Source: a virus (Duplodnaviria > Heunggongvirae > Uroviricota > Caudoviricetes). From it: 9,206 nucleotides of DNA. A model generated the notes under the pieces. The model was not told the DNA's origin, ran no database searches, and saw nothing but the letters and a program-made list of their open reading frames with translations. The translations under genes were made by a program, and so were the position numbers. Location: IMG/VR virus record IMGVR_UViG_2534681940_000023, positions 1 through 9,206 of that record. One strand, 5' to 3'. Of the stretch, positions 938 to 9,189 are shown one piece after another; within the stretch, counting starts at the first letter, position 1; every line of letters starts with the position of its first letter.

Positions 938-1327
938 TCAGGCGGCTGCACCCGCCGTTTTCTCGTACTTACTGATAGTGATCTCGACCTTCCCTCCCGG
1001 GATAACCGGTCCCCACTCAACCAGCATTCTTTTCACCTGACTGTCGTCTTCCCACACACCCGCATGGGTCAGGGCGTCAAACAGCGCCTTGTTATAGTTG
1101 TCCAGATCGCGGATCCGGTTATCCGGCGGAAACAACACGATCTCCACTGAAGCAGGTGCCGACGTTGGTTTCGGCAGACGACGTAACTGCTCAACTATTG
1201 CTGCACACGCCGCGCTCTGGAATTTGCGCCCCGCCGCGCTTATCAGGCTCTTACCTGCAAACGCCCCTTTGTTGGGGTGTCGCCAGTACGTGTTCACGCT
1301 GGGCGGAAAAGGCAGGATCAGCTTCAT
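938..1327 (-). CDS. rusA: RusA Holliday-junction resolvase (crossover junction endodeoxyribonuclease)
   Basis: 129 aa; the RIRDLDNYNKALFDALT acidic motif and overall pattern fit the RusA family. Start ATG overlaps the upstream gene's stop as ATGA. Confidence 0.85.
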   Translation of the reverse strand: MKLILPFPPSVNTYWRHPNKGAFAGKSLISAAGRKFQSAACAAIVEQLRRLPKPTSAPASVEIVLFPPDNRIRDLDNYNKALFDALTHAGVWEDDSQVKRMLVEWGPVIPGGKVEITISKYEKTAGAAA

Positions 1328-1650
1328 ACTTTCAGGCCCCTCTCATGTAACCAGTGGGTTGCACGCAGCCTTGCGTTTTCCTCACCGGCAAGCAGTGCGC
1401 GGATAATCCCGACCGCCTCGCTGTCGTCGTCCTTCACCGCGGTATGAAGCGTTATCCCCCGGGCCACGCCACGCTTTATCGTGATGACGCCTTTTTTCTC
1501 CAGTGCGCGAAGATGCTCCACCGCTGCATTCACCGAACGGTATCCCAGCATGGTTGCCACCTCCTGATTGGTTGGCGGGAAGCCACGTTCTTTCTGATAA
1601 GAAATCAGCATATCCAACACCTGCTGCTGGCATTGAGTTAACGTCGTCAT
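1324..1650 (-). CDS. LexA-like N-terminal winged-helix DNA-binding protein (no peptidase domain)
   Basis: 108 aa; QQQVLDMLISYQKERGFPPTNQEVATMLGYRSVNAAVEHLRALEKKGVI resembles the LexA DNA-binding domain. ATGA overlap with the Dam gene stop. Confidence 0.6.
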   Translation of the reverse strand: MTTLTQCQQQVLDMLISYQKERGFPPTNQEVATMLGYRSVNAAVEHLRALEKKGVITIKRGVARGITLHTAVKDDDSEAVGIIRALLAGEENARLRATHWLHERGLKV

Positions 1651-3595: not shown

Positions 3596-3786
3596 GGACG
3601 CACCTCCGCCGTTGTGATGTATTTAACCGGGCTGCCTTTCATTGCGATGATTTCACACATCTCCGCTGCTTTACGTTCCGCTGTTTTCCTGGATTTATAG
3701 CGGCGGTGCCAAACAGACGTATCCGTGCGAACTGATACATCGTTTCTGTATTCCGTAGTGGAGATGATGATTTCGTAACTAATCAT
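3592..3786 (-). CDS. Hypothetical protein (64 aa)
   Basis: ATG start overlaps the Rha stop as ATGA (translational coupling). No recognisable family. Confidence 0.5.
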
Positions 3787-4346
3787 GGGCGTACCTCCTT
3801 GTCAGAACCATTCAGCCTGGAATCAACAAGTGCAGCACCAAAAACAGCATCACCTACACGGTCGTACAGTTTGCCAGCCAGCGGAGATTCAACAGCCTTA
3901 AGCATGGGATAAAGCTGGCTTCTCCAGATTTGATGGATTTCACGCAAATGCAGGTATACGCCTCTGGCGTTTTGTGCGACAGATGACATCTCAGCCGCAC
4001 CAGCTCCTGATAAGCTCCTCTCCATCTGGTTAAAGGCATTGATGTATGCCTCTTTGAACCGGGCGGCACGCTTGCCAGTGAAGCCCATAGCAAGGAATGC
4101 GAAGCCGTCGCGGGTGATTTGATAGCAGGGAAGTTTGCGAGTACCGCCGTTGGGCTGGCGTACCAAAATTGATGTCTCCGCAAAATTGCGGGCACAAAAC
4201 TCTGGAGAACAATCCAAAATGCGGATCTTTTTCAGAACATCGTCATGACGTTTAGAGAAGAAGTCAGCAACAGCCAAAGAAGATGTAACAGCCTGACCAT
4301 CAACGATGGCAATTTCAGGTTGAGAGAGAGTTGGGAAAGTAGTCAT
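3783..4346 (-). CDS. rha: Phage regulatory protein Rha (187 aa); C-terminal part of the 553-aa track ORF
   Basis: [32 protein letters not shown] is the Rha N-terminal domain signature, and it starts about 10 residues after the ATG at 4346, as in typical Rha proteins. AGGGG lies 9 nt upstream. Confidence 0.8.
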
Positions 4347-4638
4347 GGTGACAGCCCCTATGTTGAATTCAAAGAACTCACCACATGGGACGCCAATCAC
4401 AGAGGTGGTGAGACGTACAGGGTTGGCGTAACCGGTCAACATAGAACCCGGCGCATCTTGCGATGCCCCTGCACGCCCCACCATAATTTGGACGTAGCAA
4501 TGCTCATGATACGAAAAGACCGCATGAGCGCGGTTATGCTCTATATTGAATTCCAGGACGCCAATCCCGACACCCGCTTTATAAGGTGCCTGAACAGTGT
4601 AACGTCCCGAAATTGAGGAATCAATGTTTTGATAAAAT

Positions 4639-5031
4639 TCAGCGATTAGACGCTTCTTTTCTACCCATATTAACTTTGAACAAGAGCTCCATACGACGAG
4701 TCCAGACACCACGTTCTTTGAGTTGTGCTCTGGCTTCTTCGCGCTCAGATACGGAAGTTCTGACAATACGATTTCCAGCCAGATTGCGGCGATATTCTCC
4801 AAACGCGACTGACTGAAGGTATGCAGCGGAGCTTTTGTACTGATAGATGGCTCTTCGAAGGCTGTTTTTATATTCCTTAGGTATATGTCCGAGATCGGCA
4901 AAAAGCTCATGAACGATATCGTGAACAAGCGGAACAACTTTGTATGGAATAACAAAGAAGCTTTCTGGATAGCGTTCAGCCAATACTTTAATGATTTCTT
5001 TATTTGCAAGATGCCTTGCTTTTCTTCCCAT
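4639..5031 (-). CDS. ProQ/FinO-domain RNA-binding protein (130 aa)
   Basis: [17 protein letters not shown]...[18 protein letters not shown]...GNRIV...EEARAQLKE parallels the ProQ N-terminal FinO-like domain (KEVIAFLAERFP...LRSALRLYTSSWRYLYGV...EHARKQLEE, from memory). GGAG SD about 10 nt upstream of the ATG. Confidence 0.75.
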
Positions 5032-5091
5032 ATACCATTCTCCATTACTCCAGATATCAGAATGATATATCCAGGTTCAAGCAGTTCAAGC

Positions 5092-5444
5092 TTATGCTGG
5101 TGCTTCGCACTCAACAAAATCACGACGAAACAACCACAGCGGGCTGAAGCATTCATGCGGATAACCATCACGCAGGTAAATAACCCGCTGTGTTTCCGGT
5201 TCCCAACGAATGACTCTGACGGGCACTCCGTAGTGATCTTTGAACCAGCGGTTAACTTGTTGCAAAGGACTGTCTCCTTCTGCCGGTTGAAATCACCCAC
5301 AGCCCACTCTGCAAATCTGTGGGTTACAATTTCCCTGTCACCTGGTACATTCACTGCATAGCAATACTCCACCTTCGCTTTTCCACCCGGTACAGGAAGC
5401 GCAATCAGTTGCGAGCGACGGTAGTGTGTTGTTAAACTGTTCAT
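5092..5444 (-). pseudogene. Frameshifted gene of unknown function: N-terminal 50-60 aa in one frame, C-terminal 57 aa in the -1 frame
   Basis: ATG 5444 is ATGA-coupled to the upstream gene and encodes a protein-like [52 protein letters not shown], after which that frame turns low-complexity. The -1 frame from about 5292 to the TAA at 5092..5094 encodes [56 protein letters not shown]. Confidence 0.45.
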
Positions 5445-6082
5445 GCGTTAGTTTCTCCACAACCAGAAGCAATCGACGCCACGACGCCCGGAGCTGCACA
5501 CTCGCGGGCGTTACTCTTTTCCGGCGCACAAAAAACACGAAATAACAGTGTTAAATGCTCCTTCCACTTCGCCATTACTTGGTAGCTGTTCTCTTCGATT
5601 TGCTCACGCTCAGCCTGGTCAATAACTCCATCAGCAGTTGCCTTGCGTAAGTACTGGGAATGCTTGCCAATCCATTCTATTGACTCCATCAGCCGCTGAT
5701 TAATGTCACCATTGTCAATGTCATCAATGACCACCAGCGGCACAAACACCCCATTACTACGACGGGCTATTGCATCCGTTACATGCCTGGTACCACTGGC
5801 ATCCTGTAAAACCATGGCCCACTCAAGTGGAAAAATTTGATCCCCACCGCTACGCAGTCTGTTATGCAATTGATCTTTTGCTGGGGTGATATCATCAGAT
5901 TTATACAAACCAAGAATTTCTGCTGCTTCCTCATAGCCATGAGGTAAATCAGCAATCGTTCTTCGTATTGCTGCCACCAGCCATGCTGGTTGCTTATCAA
6001 CTTTCCATTCAGGTTCTTTACCCACGTTTAAGCCCTCATATCTGTGGTTTCTGTAAATCGATTTATCCATTAGATTTTTCAT
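5441..6082 (-). CDS. Phage regulatory protein in the CII/YdaT position (213 aa); function assignment tentative
   Basis: Sits immediately downstream of cro-like and upstream of the replication genes; the AAEILGL segment looks helix-turn-helix-like. Start taken at ATG 6082 (alternatives 6070 or the track's 6139, which would overlap cro by 77 nt). Confidence 0.5.
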
Positions 6083-6263
6083 AAAGCTCAGGTTTAAATG
6101 GCAACCGTCCGCAAGTTCTATATGCAGCCTCTGCTGCACGTCCTTTTGGAATTAACTGGCCAGGACGGTTTCGCCACTGATAAACGGCTTCAGTTGTTAT
6201 GCCGAAAAAAGCAGCAACTTTCTCAATGCTGCCGAAGTAGCTTTCGATATCGTCAGTCGTCAT
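6063..6263 (-). CDS. cro: Cro-like HTH transcriptional regulator (66 aa)
   Basis: Small HTH protein (SIEKVAAFFGITTEAVYQWRNR) divergent from the cI-like gene; GGAGGG SD upstream of ATG 6263. Confidence 0.75.
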   Translation of the reverse strand: MTTDDIESYFGSIEKVAAFFGITTEAVYQWRNRPGQLIPKGRAAEAAYRTCGRLPFKPELYEKSNG

Positions 6264-6360
6264 ATGCCCTCCAAACTAAGTTTTATTAGATGTTAATTAT
6301 CAATCTATCTTAGGTCAATAAAAACTAAGATTACTTAGTAATTAAAGAAATGGTGCTCCT
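6264..6360. promoter_or_regulatory. Divergent promoter/operator region (OR-like) between cro and cI
   Basis: AT-rich 97-bp intergenic region with two 16-bp operator-like sites, ACTAAGttttATTAGA (6275..6290) and the palindrome ACTAAGattaCTTAGT (6324..6339). Minus-strand TTGACC-17-TAACAT is a candidate PR. Confidence 0.6.
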
Positions 6361-6987
6361 ATGGAAACGGTTGGTCAGCGTATAAAAGCTCTGAGAAGAG
6401 TTACCAGAACGTCCCAGAAAGAATTGGGTAAATTTTGTGGAGTAAGTGACGTTGCTGTGGGGTACTGGGAGAAAGACATCAATGTCCCTGGTGGGGAAGC
6501 ACTTTCAAAATTAGCGAAGTTCTTCAATACGTCAATAGATTACATTCTTTATGGTGCGGAGTTTGAAGGCAAACTCGTCACAAACATGCGCAGAGTTCCT
6601 GTAATCTCGTGGGTTCAGGCTGGGCAGTTTACTGAGTGCAGGACAGCAGAAGTGTTTAGTGAAGTAGACAAGTGGGTAGATACATCATTAAAGATTGGTG
6701 ATAACTCATTTGCATTGGAGGTTAAAGGCGACTCCATGACTAACCCTAACGGCCTCCCAACAATACCAGAAGGCGCAACAGTGATTGTAGATCCTGATGC
6801 AGAACCCCGGCATGGAAAAATAGTCATCGCTAGACTTGATGGAACAAACGAAGCCACAGTAAAAAAATTAGTTATCGATGGCCCTCAAAAGTTTTTAGTG
6901 CCATTAAATCCCCGGTACCCCAACATTCCGATCAATGGTAATTGCCTCATCATTGGTGTAGTCAAAGGAGTTCAATACGAACTCTAG
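6361..6987 (+). CDS. cI-like prophage repressor, HTH N-terminal domain with S24 (LexA-like) autopeptidase C-terminal domain
   Basis: 208 aa; N-terminal HTH; Ala87-Gly88 candidate cleavage site (VQAG); Ser125 in GDSM and Lys168/169 (VKKL) match the S24 catalytic dyad. Confidence 0.9.
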   Translation: METVGQRIKALRRVTRTSQKELGKFCGVSDVAVGYWEKDINVPGGEALSKLAKFFNTSIDYILYGAEFEGKLVTNMRRVPVISWVQAGQFTECRTAEVFSEVDKWVDTSLKIGDNSFALEVKGDSMTNPNGLPTIPEGATVIVDPDAEPRHGKIVIARLDGTNEATVKKLVIDGPQKFLVPLNPRYPNIPINGNCLIIGVVKGVQYEL

Positions 6988-7004
6988 CCCCCCTTTTCTC
7001 TAAC

Positions 7005-7075
7005 CAAAACACCGAACTAAGAAAAGTTTGGTGTTTTCTCTTGCCATCAAAACTAAGTTAAGTTAGATTTTATAT
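7005..7075 (+). promoter_or_regulatory. OL/PL-like operator-promoter region downstream of cI
   Basis: Two more ACTAAG-N4-NTTNGN sites (7016..7031, 7052..7067). Candidate promoter TTGCCA (7041..7046), 17-nt spacer, TAGATT (7064..7069), overlapped by the second site. 8-bp inverted repeat AAAACACC/GGTGTTTT (7005..7012, 7029..7036). Confidence 0.5.
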
Positions 7076-7164
7076 CAAAGATAACGAACAGGCAGGACGC
7101 CCACGAAGTAGCCGACGGTGGCGTATGAATGACCGGATGATTCGCGCATGGCAGGAGAGTGAAT

Positions 7165-7533
7165 ATGGATGGCAGTATCGACAACCAACGAGATGCCTGG
7201 CTTGTGGTGATTGAAGCAGCAAAAACTGCATTAAGCCAAGTTGAAAGCAGTAACTACAGAACAGTTAAACAAATGGCTTTGGGCTCTATTATCTATGCCT
7301 TTGAAAGGCTGGACTTTGATTTTGAAGCAACGAGTATTCTGTCAGAACAACATGAAAAAATGAATAGAGAAGACGCCGCAGCCTATATCGGCGTAGAAGC
7401 GCAAACCTTAGCTAATTGGGCTAGCACAGGAAAAGTTCGAATACCTTTTTTAAAAATCGGTAGAAAGGTTATTTACCTAAAAAGTGATCTTGATGCCTAT
7501 CTTGCCTCATCGAAGGCAAATACCACCAAGTAG
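7165..7533 (+). CDS. HTH (AlpA/excisionase-like HTH_17-type) DNA-binding protein, 122 aa; first gene of the leftward-type early operon
   Basis: C-terminal REDAAAYIGVEAQTLANWASTGKVRIPFLKIGRKVIYLKSDLDAYL resembles an AlpA/Xis-type HTH. AGGAGA SD 6 nt upstream of ATG 7165 (the track start at 7159 is GTG). Confidence 0.6.
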   Translation: MDGSIDNQRDAWLVVIEAAKTALSQVESSNYRTVKQMALGSIIYAFERLDFDFEATSILSEQHEKMNREDAAAYIGVEAQTLANWASTGKVRIPFLKIGRKVIYLKSDLDAYLASSKANTTK

Positions 7534-7739
7534 CTCACGTACCTACCACCTCGCCTGATGTGGCTAAAAGCAGGCACATAACAGCTAAGTATTTTCAACC
7601 AGAGAGAATCCTTAGCGTTGTGGTGAATGCGGCTCAGCGCACGCGGGTTAAGGTTGAGACTGACAGTCGACCTTCTGTGGATACCCACCCGCCTGGTGTG
7701 CAACCTTCGCCAGGCACCGGGAGGCACCCGGCACCACAA

Positions 7740-7799
7740 CAGCCACTGCTTTGGCGGTACCAGTTTGTACACTTGCTTCCGGCTGGTACCGCTCTTTTT
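7740..7799 (+). ncRNA. dicF: DicF-like small RNA (candidate)
   Basis: GCTTTGGCGGTACCAGTTTGTAC... closely resembles the core of E. coli DicF (GTTTGGCGGTATCAGTTTTAC..., from memory) and ends in an intrinsic terminator. The 5' end is not determinable from sequence. Confidence 0.45.
7754..7799 (+). terminator. Rho-independent terminator of the DicF-like sRNA
   Basis: 10-bp GC-rich stem GCGGTACCAG (7754..7763) pairing with CTGGTACCGC (7783..7792), 19-nt loop, then TCTTTTT (7793..7799). Confidence 0.6.
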
Positions 7800-7888
7800 A
7801 CAAAACAGAGAAGAGCATCACCGGACGACGGGCTCATAACCCAATCCACCCGGGCGGCTGCCACCGCAGGTGCTCTTCTCTGTTTTGT
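7800..7888 (+). repeat. 18-bp perfect inverted repeat (ACAAAACAGAGAAGAGCA / TGCTCTTCTCTGTTTTGT) with 53-nt spacer; candidate long RNA hairpin
   Basis: Left arm 7800..7817 is the exact reverse complement of right arm 7871..7888. The stem can extend with G-U pairs into the terminator U-tract. It lies 35-50 nt upstream of the RBS of the next gene. Confidence 0.8.
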
Positions 7889-7936
7889 GGAGAAACCAAC
7901 CGACCTTGCAGGGTCGATATGATGAGGAGCAGCAAA

Positions 7937-8299
7937 ATGGCTAGCGAACGCAGTACTGATGTGCAGGCATTTATCGGGGAGCTGGACGGCGGCGTATTTG
8001 AAACCAAAATCGGCGCTGTTCTCAGTGAAGTCGCTTCAGGTGTGATGAACACGAAAACCAAAGGGAAGGTCTCGCTCAACCTGGAAATCGAACCGTTTGA
8101 TGAGAACCGTGTGAAAATAAAACACAAACTCTCATATGTTCGTCCGACTAACCGCGGGAAAATTTCCGAAGAAGACACCACCGAAACGCCGATGTATGTC
8201 AATCGCGGTGGTCGCCTGACTATTCTGCAGGAAGACCAGGGACAATTACTGACTCTTGCCGGTGAACCTGACGGAAAACTCCGCGCAGCAGGTCATTAA
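7937..8299 (+). CDS. Hypothetical protein, 120 aa (YfdP-like, by size and context)
   Basis: GAGGAG SD 7 nt upstream of ATG 7937; the track ORF start at 7751 runs through the sRNA and hairpin and is rejected. Identity with CPS-53 prophage YfdP is from recollection of size and gene order only. Confidence 0.6.
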   Translation: MASERSTDVQAFIGELDGGVFETKIGAVLSEVASGVMNTKTKGKVSLNLEIEPFDENRVKIKHKLSYVRPTNRGKISEEDTTETPMYVNRGGRLTILQEDQGQLLTLAGEPDGKLRAAGH

Positions 8300-8364
8300 T
8301 ATCGTTCTTAATTAACTGATTATTTATCTCATCACTGAATATCCTTATATAGTGAGGACTTATT

Positions 8365-9189
8365 ATGTCTCAGAACTTAGACGCAACCGCAATTAATCAA
8401 ATCCATGCCCTTATTTCTGCTCAGGGTGTTAATGAAATTATTAGTAAGATTGGTGCCGATGCTGTGGCATTGCCTGAGAATTTCCGCATTCATGATCTGG
8501 AAAAATTTAATTTAAATCGCTTCCGTTTCCGTGGTGCGCTTTCCACTGCCAGCATCGATGACTTTACCCGTTATTCTAAAGATCTTGCAGATGAAGGCAC
8601 CCGCTGCTTTATCGATGCCGATAATATGCGTGCCGTCAGTGTGCTTAACCTGGGTACTATTGATGAACCAGGTCACGCAGATAACACCGCCACTCTCAAA
8701 CTGAAAAAGACAGCACCGTTCTCTGCTCTGTTGTCTGTTAATGGCGAGCGTAACTCCCAAAAGTCACTGGCAGAATGGATTGAAGACTGGGCCGACTACC
8801 TTGTGGGCTTTGATGCTAATGGTGACGCCATTCAGGCAACCAAAGCGGCTGCGGCGATCCGTAAAATCACAATTGAAGCGAACCAGACCGCTGATTTTGA
8901 AGACAATGACTTCAGCGGCAAACGCTCCCTGATGGAGTCTGTCGAAGCGAAGACCAAAGACATTATGCCAGTGGCATTTGAATTTAAATGCGTTCCGTTT
9001 GAAGGCCTGAAAGAACGTCCGTTTAAATTACGCCTCAGCATTATCACTGGCGATCGTCCTGTACTGGTTCTGCGCATTATTCAGCTGGAAGCGGTGCAGG
9101 AAGAAATGGCTAACGAATTTCGTGATCTGCTTGTTGAGAAATTTAAAGACAGCAAAGTAGAAACCTTTATTGGTACTTTCACCGCCTGA
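8365..9189 (+). CDS. Hypothetical protein, 274 aa (YfdQ-like, DUF2303-type, by size and context)
   Basis: GTGAGGA SD upstream of ATG 8365; clean protein-like 274-aa ORF. Identity with CPS-53 prophage YfdQ is from recollection of size and gene order only. Confidence 0.7.

What the first reader, a model, noticed from the sequence alone, without database searches (positions are those of the whole stretch)
7165..7533. First gene after the OL/PL-like promoter is an HTH_17/AlpA-like protein, not an N-type antiterminator
In lambda and P22 the first leftward early gene is N (gene 24), with an arginine-rich RNA-binding motif. This 122-aa protein has no arginine-rich N-terminus and instead carries a C-terminal AlpA/excisionase-like HTH. 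The phage may use a different early regulatory logic, or the protein may be a repressor-adjacent accessory (exclusion or regulatory) factor.
Basis: partly seen in the sequence, partly recalled or inferred. Interest (0 to 1): 0.45.

Follow-up and report, generated by a model that had tools for sequence, protein, structure and literature searches.

The report
Rare accessory DNA-binding gene behind PL
The first gene after this phage's leftward early promoter is a real but rare add-on gene for a two-part DNA-binding protein, not a replacement for the lambda N regulator; it sits in a swap-in slot, and its DNA-binding half most resembles the master regulators of phage satellites.

Summary
Bases 7165-7533 encode a 122-aa protein with a Shine-Dalgarno site. 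It is the first gene after a cI-controlled PL/OL-like promoter. Its C-terminal half is an HTH_17 winged helix, and it has no arginine-rich motif.

The gene is not this phage group's answer to N. It is a 395-bp cassette (7146-7540) in a hypervariable slot between two conserved non-coding elements. About a third of complete E. coli genomes carry the slot's leader; 8 of 5426 carry this gene. Relatives with the same flanks carry unrelated genes there.

The protein has two conserved domains. The N-terminal helical hairpin has almost no relatives. The C-terminal DNA-binding domain is 51-60% identical to the 67-73-aa HTH_17 proteins just downstream of the integrase in PICI/cf-PICI/P4-like satellites.

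Best reading: an early, PL-expressed, probably dimeric DNA-binding regulator acting in trans on AlpA/Xis-type sites of another mobile element. That last step is inference.

The N-less design belongs to the whole phage group. It comes with an unannotated leader RNA (7083-7146) with strong covariation and a downstream STnc100/PasD-like RNA ending in a terminator.

The parts
7006..7037 (+). cI terminator hairpin (13-bp arms) followed by a T-rich run
   Evidence: Inverted repeat I7 and the sequence itself. SfV has a terminator annotated at the equivalent place.
7041..7069 (+). PL-like promoter: TTGCCA, 17 nt, TAGATT
   Evidence: Promoter scan. It overlaps the OL operator.
7052..7066 (+). OL operator ACTAAGTTAAGTTAG; a weaker copy lies at 7016-7030
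   Evidence: It repeats the OR sites at 6275 and 6324. There are 5 matches against 0.31 expected, all at OR or OL.
7083..7146 (+). Conserved structured leader RNA of the PL transcript. P1 pairs 7083-7088 with 7141-7146. An invariant 24-nt core reads CAGGCAGGACGCCCACGAAGUAGC. The P2 hairpin pairs 7115-7119 with 7132-7136.
   Evidence: 33 distinct variants: 93% of cells paired and 10 of 11 pairs with compensatory changes, against <=42% paired in slid controls. Model R1 scores 79 bits here and finds no second copy. There is no Rfam hit.
7146..7540 (+). Swap-in cassette: exactly this gene with its SD, bounded by sequence conserved in relatives
   Evidence: Alignment with SfV and 689R6. Megablast coverage breaks at these points.
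7153..7157 (+). Shine-Dalgarno AGGAG, 7 nt before the ATG
   Evidence: Sequence; conserved in Citrobacter.
7165..7533 (+). CDS for the 122-aa two-domain protein
7171..7308 (+). N-terminal domain: two helices (residues 3-24 and 34-48), acidic, family-specific
   Evidence: AF2 models, pLDDT about 60. Motif conserved at 50-53% overall identity. Only 4 hits among 1.84 billion representatives.
7357..7527 (+). C-terminal HTH_17 / excisionase-fold winged helix (residues 65-121)
   Evidence: Pfam. AF2 pLDDT 80-92. Foldseek top hit RdfS, rmsd 1.1 A over 51 columns.
7541..7936 (+). Conserved non-coding 3' flank of the slot, called 'ymfH' or hypothetical protein in some genomes
   Evidence: Present in 2809 of 5426 E. 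coli genomes. No codon periodicity (80/79/80 variable sites) and indels of 1, 4, 5 and 7 nt.
7599..7801 (+). STnc100/PasD-like RNA ending in a terminator hairpin (7754-7792) and a U-run
   Evidence: Rfam RF02076, 36.3 bits, below the gathering score of 47, E=4.5e-6, full-length alignment. Inverted repeat I17.
7937..8299 (+). yfdP, the first conserved protein gene of the leftward operon
   Evidence: PHROG 204; annotated yfdP in relatives.

Best explanation
Shown:
- The gene is an optional cargo cassette. It is the first cistron of the cI-repressed PL transcript, so it should be made immediately after induction or infection and not in the lysogen.
- Its product has a conserved family-specific N-terminal helical hairpin, a short flexible linker, and a C-terminal winged helix of the excisionase / MerR-like (HTH_17) fold.
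- It is not an N analogue. It is very probably not the phage's own excisionase or an essential part of the early circuit.

Inferred:
- The N-domain makes the protein dimeric or oligomeric. The winged helix then binds specific DNA as a regulator or architectural factor.
- The recognition helix and wing (QTLANWAxTG...KxGRKVIYL) are nearly invariant between this protein and the 67-73-aa HTH_17 proteins that sit just downstream of the integrase in PICI/cf-PICI/P4-like satellites. That is the position of the satellite master regulator AlpA. The likeliest target is therefore the same kind of site on a co-resident satellite or island.
- The phage would then either trigger or, more plausibly for the phage, block that element's AlpA/Xis-dependent switch early in lytic growth. 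P2 Cox acting on satellite P4 is the precedent.

Confidence by layer: about 0.85 for 'accessory early DNA-binding protein, not the antiterminator'; about 0.3 for 'target is a satellite or other mobile element'.
For: Cargo status:
- Precise cassette between conserved flanks.
- 8 of 5426 E. coli genomes carry it, against 1841 with the leader and 2809 with the 3' flank.
- 1 of 50,697 phage records carries it, and 0 of 108 leader-bearing IMG/VR contigs, whose slots hold 47 clusters of first ORFs.
- It occurs with at least 4 different immunity modules.

Early expression: the only predicted promoter is the operator-overlapped PL.

Two real domains.

Fold: RdfS, Xis, BldC, RacA, TerS DNA-binding domain and P2 Cox.

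Link to satellites:
- 51-60% identity over the C-terminal half.
- All 8 short homologues whose context was read lie in the order P4-type integrase, sometimes a ~200-313-aa ORF, HTH_17, primase-helicase (often with a small divergent gene in between), several with their own capsid genes.
- No other phage record has this DNA-binding domain.
- A second prophage type carries the same domain (74% identical) fused to an unrelated N-domain, again in its leftward operon.

Literature:
- AlpA downstream of int is the master regulator of Gram-negative PICIs and is switched on by the helper phage (PMC11773190).
- Xis/AlpA cross-talk between a phage and a PICI has been shown experimentally (PMC11773190).

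Not the phage's own directionality factor: separate candidates lie next to the attachment end, a PrtN-family gene in L024 and Exc + int in L148.
Against: - No binding site was identified.
- The inverted repeat TATC(A/C)CCG-N18-CGGTGATA upstream of the satellite genes is missing from three of the satellites and has no clean copy in the 42.9-kb phage. It may be an RNA hairpin rather than an operator.
- No satellite of this clade was detected at DNA level in E. coli, and co-occurrence was not tested.
- The satellite proteins are HTH_17 proteins in the AlpA position. They are not shown to be AlpA.
- Dimerisation by the N-domain is a guess from a model with pLDDT about 60.
- Similarity of 51-60% does not guarantee the same DNA specificity.
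- cf-PICIs are reported not to harm their helpers, which weakens the motive for an anti-satellite factor.
Confidence: 0.4

Rival explanations
1. It is a DNA-loaded processive antiterminator or activator, like Pseudomonas AlpA or lambdoid Q. It would act on its own PL operon and let RNA polymerase read through the terminator at 7754-7801 into yfdP and beyond, a functional stand-in for N.
For: It holds the N position, with a terminator-like hairpin plus U-run about 220 nt downstream. No promoter is predicted before yfdP. HTH proteins of the wider AlpA class can be antiterminators (my knowledge: Pena et al. 2021; Wen et al. 2022, not read here).
Against: The same leader, terminator region and yfdPQR operon occur in thousands of prophages that lack this gene and carry unrelated cargo. 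There is no PF05930 hit and no sequence match to any solved AlpA chain, even with a profile. The extra domain is N-terminal, not a C-terminal polymerase-contacting tail.
Confidence: 0.12
2. It is a repressor-type regulator aimed at the host or at competing phages. It would shut down a host promoter or a rival phage's promoter during lytic growth.
For: It is a DNA-binding protein with a likely dimerisation domain. PL operons are rich in host-takeover genes (established knowledge for lambda). The slot holds diverse accessory genes, some reverse-oriented.
Against: Exclusion genes are normally expressed in the lysogen, but this gene lies behind the operator-controlled PL and a strong cI terminator. 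The nearest relatives of the DNA-binding domain are all satellite-borne, not phage or host regulators.
Confidence: 0.2
3. It is an extra excisionase or recombination directionality factor for this phage's own integrase.
For: The excisionase fold is the best structural match (RdfS, Pukovnik Xis, Tn916 Xis). PHROG 66 'excisionase and transcriptional regulator' matches at E=5.8e-8.
Against: It lies about 7 kb from the integrase in mEp460_4F5. Carriers use different integrases and have their own candidates (PrtN family, Exc) next to int. Most relatives with the same integration modules lack it. TIGR01764 is below its cut-off.
Confidence: 0.08
4. Only the 57-aa C-terminal product (PGAP's call, from Met66) is made, and the upstream 65 codons are untranslated leader.
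For: PGAP annotates the 174-nt version in several genomes. The stand-alone homologues are 67-73 aa.
Against: The SD is at ATG 7165 and none precedes Met66. The frame is kept across E. coli, Citrobacter and Ewingella, with an N-terminal motif as conserved as the HTH.
Confidence: 0.05

Closest known systems
HTH_17 proteins just downstream of the P4-type integrase in PICI / cf-PICI / P4-like satellites (the position of the master regulator AlpA)
   Same: 51-60% identity over residues ~60-122. The recognition helix and wing are nearly invariant. Same Pfam family.
   Different: They are 67-73 aa and single-domain, satellite-borne and linked to an integrase. This protein has an extra conserved 55-aa N-domain, is phage-borne, and sits in the PL operon far from int.
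Excisionases / directionality factors of the MerR-like winged-helix fold (RdfS 8dgl, Pukovnik Xis 4j2n, Tn916 Xis 1y6u)
   Same: The fold of the C-terminal domain: RdfS rmsd 1.1 A over 51 columns at 33% identity.
   Different: Sequence matches are below threshold (E about 0.1). It is not next to an integrase, it has an added N-domain, and the carriers have other candidates.
P2 Cox
   Same: It is the first gene of the early lytic operon and an excisionase-fold DNA binder, and Cox also acts in trans on a satellite (it activates P4 PLL; my knowledge). There is a weak structural match to 4lhf (rank 43).
   Different: Cox is single-domain, essential for the P2 switch and for excision, and universal in P2-like phages. 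This gene is optional and rare, and Cro fills the switch role here.
Lambda N / P22 gp24
   Same: Only the map position: first gene after PL, upstream of a terminator.
   Different: N is basic, disordered and RNA-binding through an arginine-rich motif at boxB. This protein is folded, acidic at the N-terminus and DNA-binding. No boxA is present.
Pseudomonas aeruginosa AlpA (Q-like antiterminator)
   Same: A small HTH protein of the broad AlpA/Xis class that controls read-through (my knowledge).
   Different: No PF05930 hit or PDB sequence match. The domain order differs. It is dispensable in relatives.
HK022 Nun / put arrangement
   Same: A lambdoid phage whose PL-proximal gene is not N and whose antitermination does not need N (my knowledge). 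Here too a conserved structured RNA follows PL.
   Different: Model R1 of the leader finds nothing in the HK022 early region. The architecture (closing helix, invariant core, one hairpin) differs from the two adjacent put stem-loops. Any function of the leader is untested.

Membership tests
Lambda N-type antiterminators | N-terminal arginine-rich RNA-binding motif in a small, basic, largely disordered protein | tested here: not met
   1 Arg in the first 25 residues; N-half pI 4.5 and whole protein pI 5.8; predicted as helices plus a winged helix.
Lambda N-type antiterminators | Profile match to an N family | tested here: not met
   No N family in Pfam at E<=1 or in PHROGs at E<=0.01.
Lambda N-type antiterminators | nut site (boxA plus a boxB hairpin with a GNRA-like pentaloop) in the leader, and a second one in the PR operon | tested here: not met
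   boxA matches are no more than chance, and none lies in the leader. The leader is a different, single-copy structure.
HTH_17 (PF12728) | Score above Pfam's gathering cut-off | tested here: met
   37.2 bits against 27, residues 69-115.
HTH_17 (PF12728) | Winged-helix (beta-alpha-alpha-beta-beta-alpha) excisionase / MerR-like fold | tested here: met
   AF2 elements E65-67, H68-75, H79-88, E96-98, E101-105, H106-121 with pLDDT 80-92; Foldseek hits.
Phage_AlpA (PF05930) / AlpA regulators | Profile match to PF05930 | tested here: not met
   No hit at E<=1.
Phage_AlpA (PF05930) / AlpA regulators | Location next to the integrase of an island or satellite, where it activates that element's cycle | tested here: not met
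   The gene is the first PL cistron of a complete lambdoid phage, about 7 kb from int. Only its short homologues hold the AlpA position. Activity is not testable here.
Excisionase / RDF (TIGR01764 'excise') | Score above the model's cut-off | tested here: not met
   22.1 bits against 28.8.
Excisionase / RDF (TIGR01764 'excise') | Genetic linkage to the cognate integrase, as the sole directionality factor of the element | tested here: not met
   Carriers have PrtN-family or Exc genes at the int end. The gene is absent from most relatives.
Excisionase / RDF (TIGR01764 'excise') | Binds att arm sites and stimulates excision | not testable with these tools
   Needs biochemistry or genetics.
MADS defence protein MAD1 | Score above the NCBIfam equivalog cut-off, and a MADS gene neighbourhood | tested here: not met
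   24.8 bits against 80. PADLOC gives a weak hit only. No defence genes lie nearby.
Moron-like cargo of a phage hypervariable slot | Gene-sized replacement between conserved flanks, patchy distribution, independent of the backbone and immunity type | tested here: met
   It lacks its own promoter and terminator, so it is cargo in an operon rather than a classic autonomous moron.

The most novel reading that the evidence does not exclude
The phage has captured the DNA-binding module of a satellite master regulator (the AlpA-position HTH_17 of PICI/cf-PICI-type elements) and fused it to a new oligomerisation or effector domain. Made in the first minutes after induction, the protein would occupy the satellite's AlpA/Xis sites. 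It would act either as a decoy that stops the satellite from excising, or as the long-sought helper signal that switches alpA on. A second prophage lineage carrying the same DNA-binding module on an unrelated N-domain (P0018) would be an independent instance of the same strategy.
Probability: 0.15. Interest if true: 0.7.

Novelty: new variant of a known kind. Interest (0 to 1): 0.4.

Why it matters
How helper phages switch on alpA in Gram-negative PICIs is not described in the papers read here, which say only that the helper activates it. No phage countermeasure that targets a satellite's regulator came up in this work.

A phage early protein carrying a satellite-type DNA-binding domain is a concrete, cheap-to-test candidate for either role. 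If the link to satellites fails, this is simply one more uncharacterised accessory HTH protein.

The work also shows that the 'missing N' belongs to a very common prophage group. In that group, PL is followed by a conserved structured leader RNA, a cargo slot, and a conserved RNA-plus-terminator region. This layout makes it directly testable how these phages get past their early terminators.

Tried and rejected
- N-like function: rejected on composition, fold, profiles and the absence of nut elements.
- The phage's own excisionase: rejected on location and on the presence of other candidates.
- Defence protein (MAD1): the hits are far below cut-off and the context is wrong.
- Relatives of the N-domain: a search of 1.84 billion representatives gave only family members, one unaligned 1605-aa entry and one chance repeat-protein hit. 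There is no similarity to any satellite-encoded protein. Foldseek against PDB and BFVD gave nothing beyond the HTH domain. AFDB50 was unavailable.
- Solved-structure relatives by sequence: none significant, even with a profile.
- Binding-site hunt: the inverted repeat TATC(A/C)CCG-N18-CGGTGATA sits upstream of five satellite HTH_17 genes. It is absent from three others, and there is no convincing copy in the window or the whole phage. This is inconclusive.
- E. coli satellites with a related gene: none detectable at DNA level.
- The 120-aa ORF 7560-7922 ('ymfH'-like): rejected as coding.
- HK022 put as the identity of the leader: no match with model R1. No paper contains the leader's core sequence.
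- A single-sequence fold of the leader was not better than shuffles (z=0.3). The evidence for its structure comes from covariation only.

Full report
**Where the window comes from.** The 9.2-kb window is the immunity and early region of a lambdoid temperate phage. Bases 6900-8400, which span the finding, are 99% identical to Escherichia virus mEp460_4F5. They are related in patches to SfV, SfII, SfIV, mEp460, prophage e14 and CPS-53-like prophages. Reading on the + strand:
- a CII-like gene at 5441-6139 (-);
- a P22_Cro-type cro at 6063-6263 (-);
- the OR region;
- a LexA-like cI (HTH_3 + Peptidase_S24) at 6361-6987 (+);
- the finding;
- yfdP at 7937-8299 and yfdQ at 8365-9189.

The leftward operon therefore runs on the + strand.

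**Checking the observation.**
- cI ends in a 13-bp hairpin with a T-rich run (7006-7037).
- A promoter-like site follows: TTGCCA, 17 nt, TAGATT at 7041-7069.
- The operator ACTAAGTTAAGTTAG (7052-7066) lies between its hexamers. The motif ACTAAG-N5-TTAG occurs five times in the window, only at OR and here, against 0.31 expected.
- The ORF 7165-7533 has AGGAG 7 nt upstream and encodes 122 aa.
- Pfam places HTH_17 on residues 69-115, at 37.2 bits against a cut-off of 27.
- The N-terminus is acidic with one arginine in 25 residues.

**Is the 122-aa frame real?** PGAP often calls only the last 57 codons. The long frame is the better call for four reasons:
- No SD precedes Met66.
- E. coli and Citrobacter copies keep the frame. 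In codons 1-65 they differ by 7 synonymous and 7 non-synonymous codon changes, with most differences at third positions.
- A search of 1.84 billion representative proteins with residues 1-65 found a 120-aa homologue. It and its relatives, one from Ewingella, are only 50-53% identical overall but keep AWLxVxExAxxALxxxESxNYxTxxQMALGSIIxAF as well as they keep the HTH.
- Two AlphaFold runs agree on helices 3-24 and 34-48 (pLDDT about 60), a low-confidence linker at about 55-61, and a confident winged helix at 65-121.

**What the C-terminal domain is.** Foldseek against the PDB puts the ICE excisionase RdfS first (rmsd 1.1 A, 33% identity). RacA, BldC, small-terminase DNA-binding domains, Pukovnik and Tn916 Xis, MerR-type regulators and, further down, P2 Cox follow. 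Sequence searches of the PDB give nothing significant, even with a profile. Other family matches:
- PF05930 (Phage_AlpA): no match.
- TIGR01764 'excise': below cut-off.
- MAD1: far below cut-off.

The protein is therefore a member of HTH_17. It is not a demonstrable member of the AlpA or excisionase families.

**The gene is cargo in a swap-in slot.** Aligning the window with SfV and phage 689R6 shows the following:
- The promoter and operators differ with immunity type.
- About 60 nt after them is conserved.
- The sequence then diverges completely from 7146 to 7540.
- About 400 nt up to yfdP is again nearly identical.

In that slot SfV has orf33 (99 aa), 689R6 has a 68-aa gene plus a reverse 144-aa gene, and e14 has ymfJ and ymfI. 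The counts are:

| Feature | Where counted | Found |
|---|---|---|
| This gene | complete E. coli genomes | 8 of 5426 |
| This gene | phage records | 1 of 50,697 |
| 3' flank 7541-7936 | complete E. coli genomes | 2809 of 5426 |
| Leader | complete E. coli genomes | 1841 of 5426 |
| This gene | leader-bearing IMG/VR contigs | 0 of 108 |

The first ORFs after the leader in those 108 contigs fall into 47 clusters. Many of the short ones are probably not genes, but none is related to this protein.

The gene occurs behind at least four different repressor/operator sets:
- window type: L004, L005, L024;
- e14/SfV type: L006;
- a Citrobacter type: L007;
- the Ewingella/metagenome type: L020, L148.

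It is always upstream of yfdP. A protein this rare, in a slot whose flanks and downstream operon are shared by thousands of prophages, cannot be the group's substitute for N.

**Relatives of the DNA-binding half.** Apart from full-length copies in E. coli and Citrobacter, the hits are 67-73-aa single-domain proteins (51-60% identity) from Klebsiella, Salmonella, Pantoea, Yersinia, Xenorhabdus, Serratia and others. I read the context of eight of them:
- All lie downstream of a P4-type integrase (Arm-DNA-bind_3), sometimes with a 200-313-aa ORF in between.
- All lie upstream of small ORFs (often including a small divergent gene) and a D5/Pox_D5- or Toprim-type primase-helicase.
- Several elements also carry capsid, protease or decoration genes.

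This is the layout of PICI, capsid-forming PICI and P4-like satellites, whose regulatory module is an AlpA, MerR or Stl homologue (PMC10085698). [quoted passage not shown] It is the master regulator, autoregulates positively, and is switched on by the helper phage (bioRxiv 10.1101/2022.09.08.507074; PMC11773190). The latter paper also shows Xis/AlpA cross-talk between a phage and a PICI.

Helix 79-88 and the wing 96-105 are almost invariant between the phage protein and the satellite proteins. By analogy with solved Xis-fold complexes (my inference), these are the DNA-contacting parts.

A 160-aa protein (P0018) has the same domain at 74% identity on an unrelated N-terminal domain. It lies in the leftward operon of a Rac-like prophage.

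**Mechanism.** Shown: early, cI-controlled expression; two conserved domains; an excisionase-fold DNA binder; optional cargo.

Inferred: the helical hairpin oligomerises the protein, and the winged helix binds sites like those of the satellite proteins. The protein would thus act in trans on another mobile element rather than on the phage's own circuit. I favour interference or cross-regulation with satellites (about 0.3).

The rivals, and why each is less likely:
- *Q/AlpA-like antiterminator for PL:* it is dispensable in relatives.
- *Repressor aimed at host or rival phages:* the relatives of the DNA-binding domain are satellite-borne.
- *Second excisionase:* the carriers have PrtN-family or Exc genes at the int end.
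- *Short product only:* the N-domain is conserved and has the SD.

I could not find a binding site.

**The 'different early logic' belongs to the phage group.** The conserved 64 nt after PL (7083-7146) form a closing helix P1, an invariant 24-nt core and a hairpin P2.
- In 33 distinct variants, 93% of cells pair and 10 of 11 pairs show compensatory changes. Registers slid by 1-3 columns give at most 42% pairing.
- The element is in ST64B, SfII, SfV, SfIV, phiNP, ZF40, YeP1-3, SPN3UB, mEp237 and in Providencia and Aeromonas phages, and is never annotated as RNA.
- It has no Rfam match and no twin in the window. It has no counterpart in the HK022 early region. Its core sequence appears in no searchable paper.
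- In the window the cassette junction cuts the 3' strand of P1, leaving 4 of 6 pairs.

Downstream, 7541-7936 is non-coding, with no codon periodicity and frame-breaking indels. It contains a sub-threshold but full-length match to STnc100, a prophage sRNA related to PasD. That match ends in a hairpin and U-run at 7754-7801.

The immediate-early transcript is thus leader, then cargo, then sRNA-like 3' region and terminator. How polymerase reaches yfdP is open. A cis-acting role for the leader is a hypothesis, not a result.

**Verdict.** The protein is a new two-domain variant within a known class (HTH_17 / excisionase-fold DNA binders). Interest is moderate and rests on the untested link to satellites. 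The by-products, the leader RNA and the slot architecture, may be worth as much as the gene itself.

Noticed in passing
window 7083-7146 (+): Unannotated, widely conserved structured RNA at the 5' end of the PL transcript. It has helix P1, an invariant core CAGGCAGGACGCCCACGAAGUAGC, and hairpin P2 with loop GGCRYAYGAAKN. 10 of 11 pairs show compensatory changes. It is present in 1841 of 5426 E. coli genomes and in many enterobacterial phages, plus Providencia and Aeromonas phages. It is not in Rfam and its core sequence appears in no searchable paper. It is a candidate cis regulator of an N-less early operon.
   Followed up: yes
window 7599-7801 (+), within the conserved non-coding 7541-7936: Full-length but sub-threshold match to the prophage sRNA family STnc100 (36.3 bits, gathering score 47), ending in a terminator hairpin at 7754-7792 plus a U-run. 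A 25-bp inverted repeat follows at 7800-7888. The region is annotated as the protein YmfH or 'hypothetical' in many genomes but shows no coding signature.
   Followed up: partly
window 3783-5031 (-): A P1-type antisense-RNA immunity module sits inside the rightward operon: a ProQ/FinO-family protein (4639-5031), isrK (4513-4589, 54 bits), C4 antisense RNA (4401-4488, 80 bits) and a Rha-family regulator (3783-4343). The 553-aa ORF 3783-5444 in the ORF list spans this module and is probably not one gene. mEp460_4F5's annotated gene map shows no such module at this place. A phage ProQ-like RNA chaperone next to C4/isrK is unusual.
   Followed up: partly
window 1324-1650 (-): 108-aa protein made only of a LexA DNA-binding domain, with no S24 cleavage domain. 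It is conserved in SfV (orf42) and relatives. It may be a non-cleavable LexA mimic encoded in the replication/nin region.
   Followed up: no
L011/L012/L017/L018/L019, position 5964-5997 (37 nt upstream of the satellite HTH_17 start codon): Conserved inverted repeat TATC(A/C)CCG-N18-CGGTGATA whose right arm overlaps the SD and start of the satellite gene. It could be an autoregulatory operator or a translation-blocking RNA hairpin. It is absent from L145-L147.
   Followed up: partly
L015 6001-6483 (protein P0018): A Rac-like prophage carries, in its leftward operon, a 160-aa protein with the same HTH_17 module (74% identical) on an unrelated ~100-aa N-terminal domain. This suggests the DNA-binding module is shuffled among phage early proteins.
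   Followed up: partly
L007 3921-4802 (Citrobacter prophage): A reverse-oriented 293-aa gene (weak BRCT hit) is inserted between cI and PL. This is a second cargo site next to the one studied.
   Followed up: no
protein P0017 (176 aa, E. coli): An in-frame fusion of the first ~50 residues of this protein to the C-terminal part of YfdQ. It looks like a deletion spanning the HTH domain, the non-coding region and yfdP. P0011 is a frameshifted 130-aa variant. Both are signs of occasional decay of the gene.
   Followed up: no
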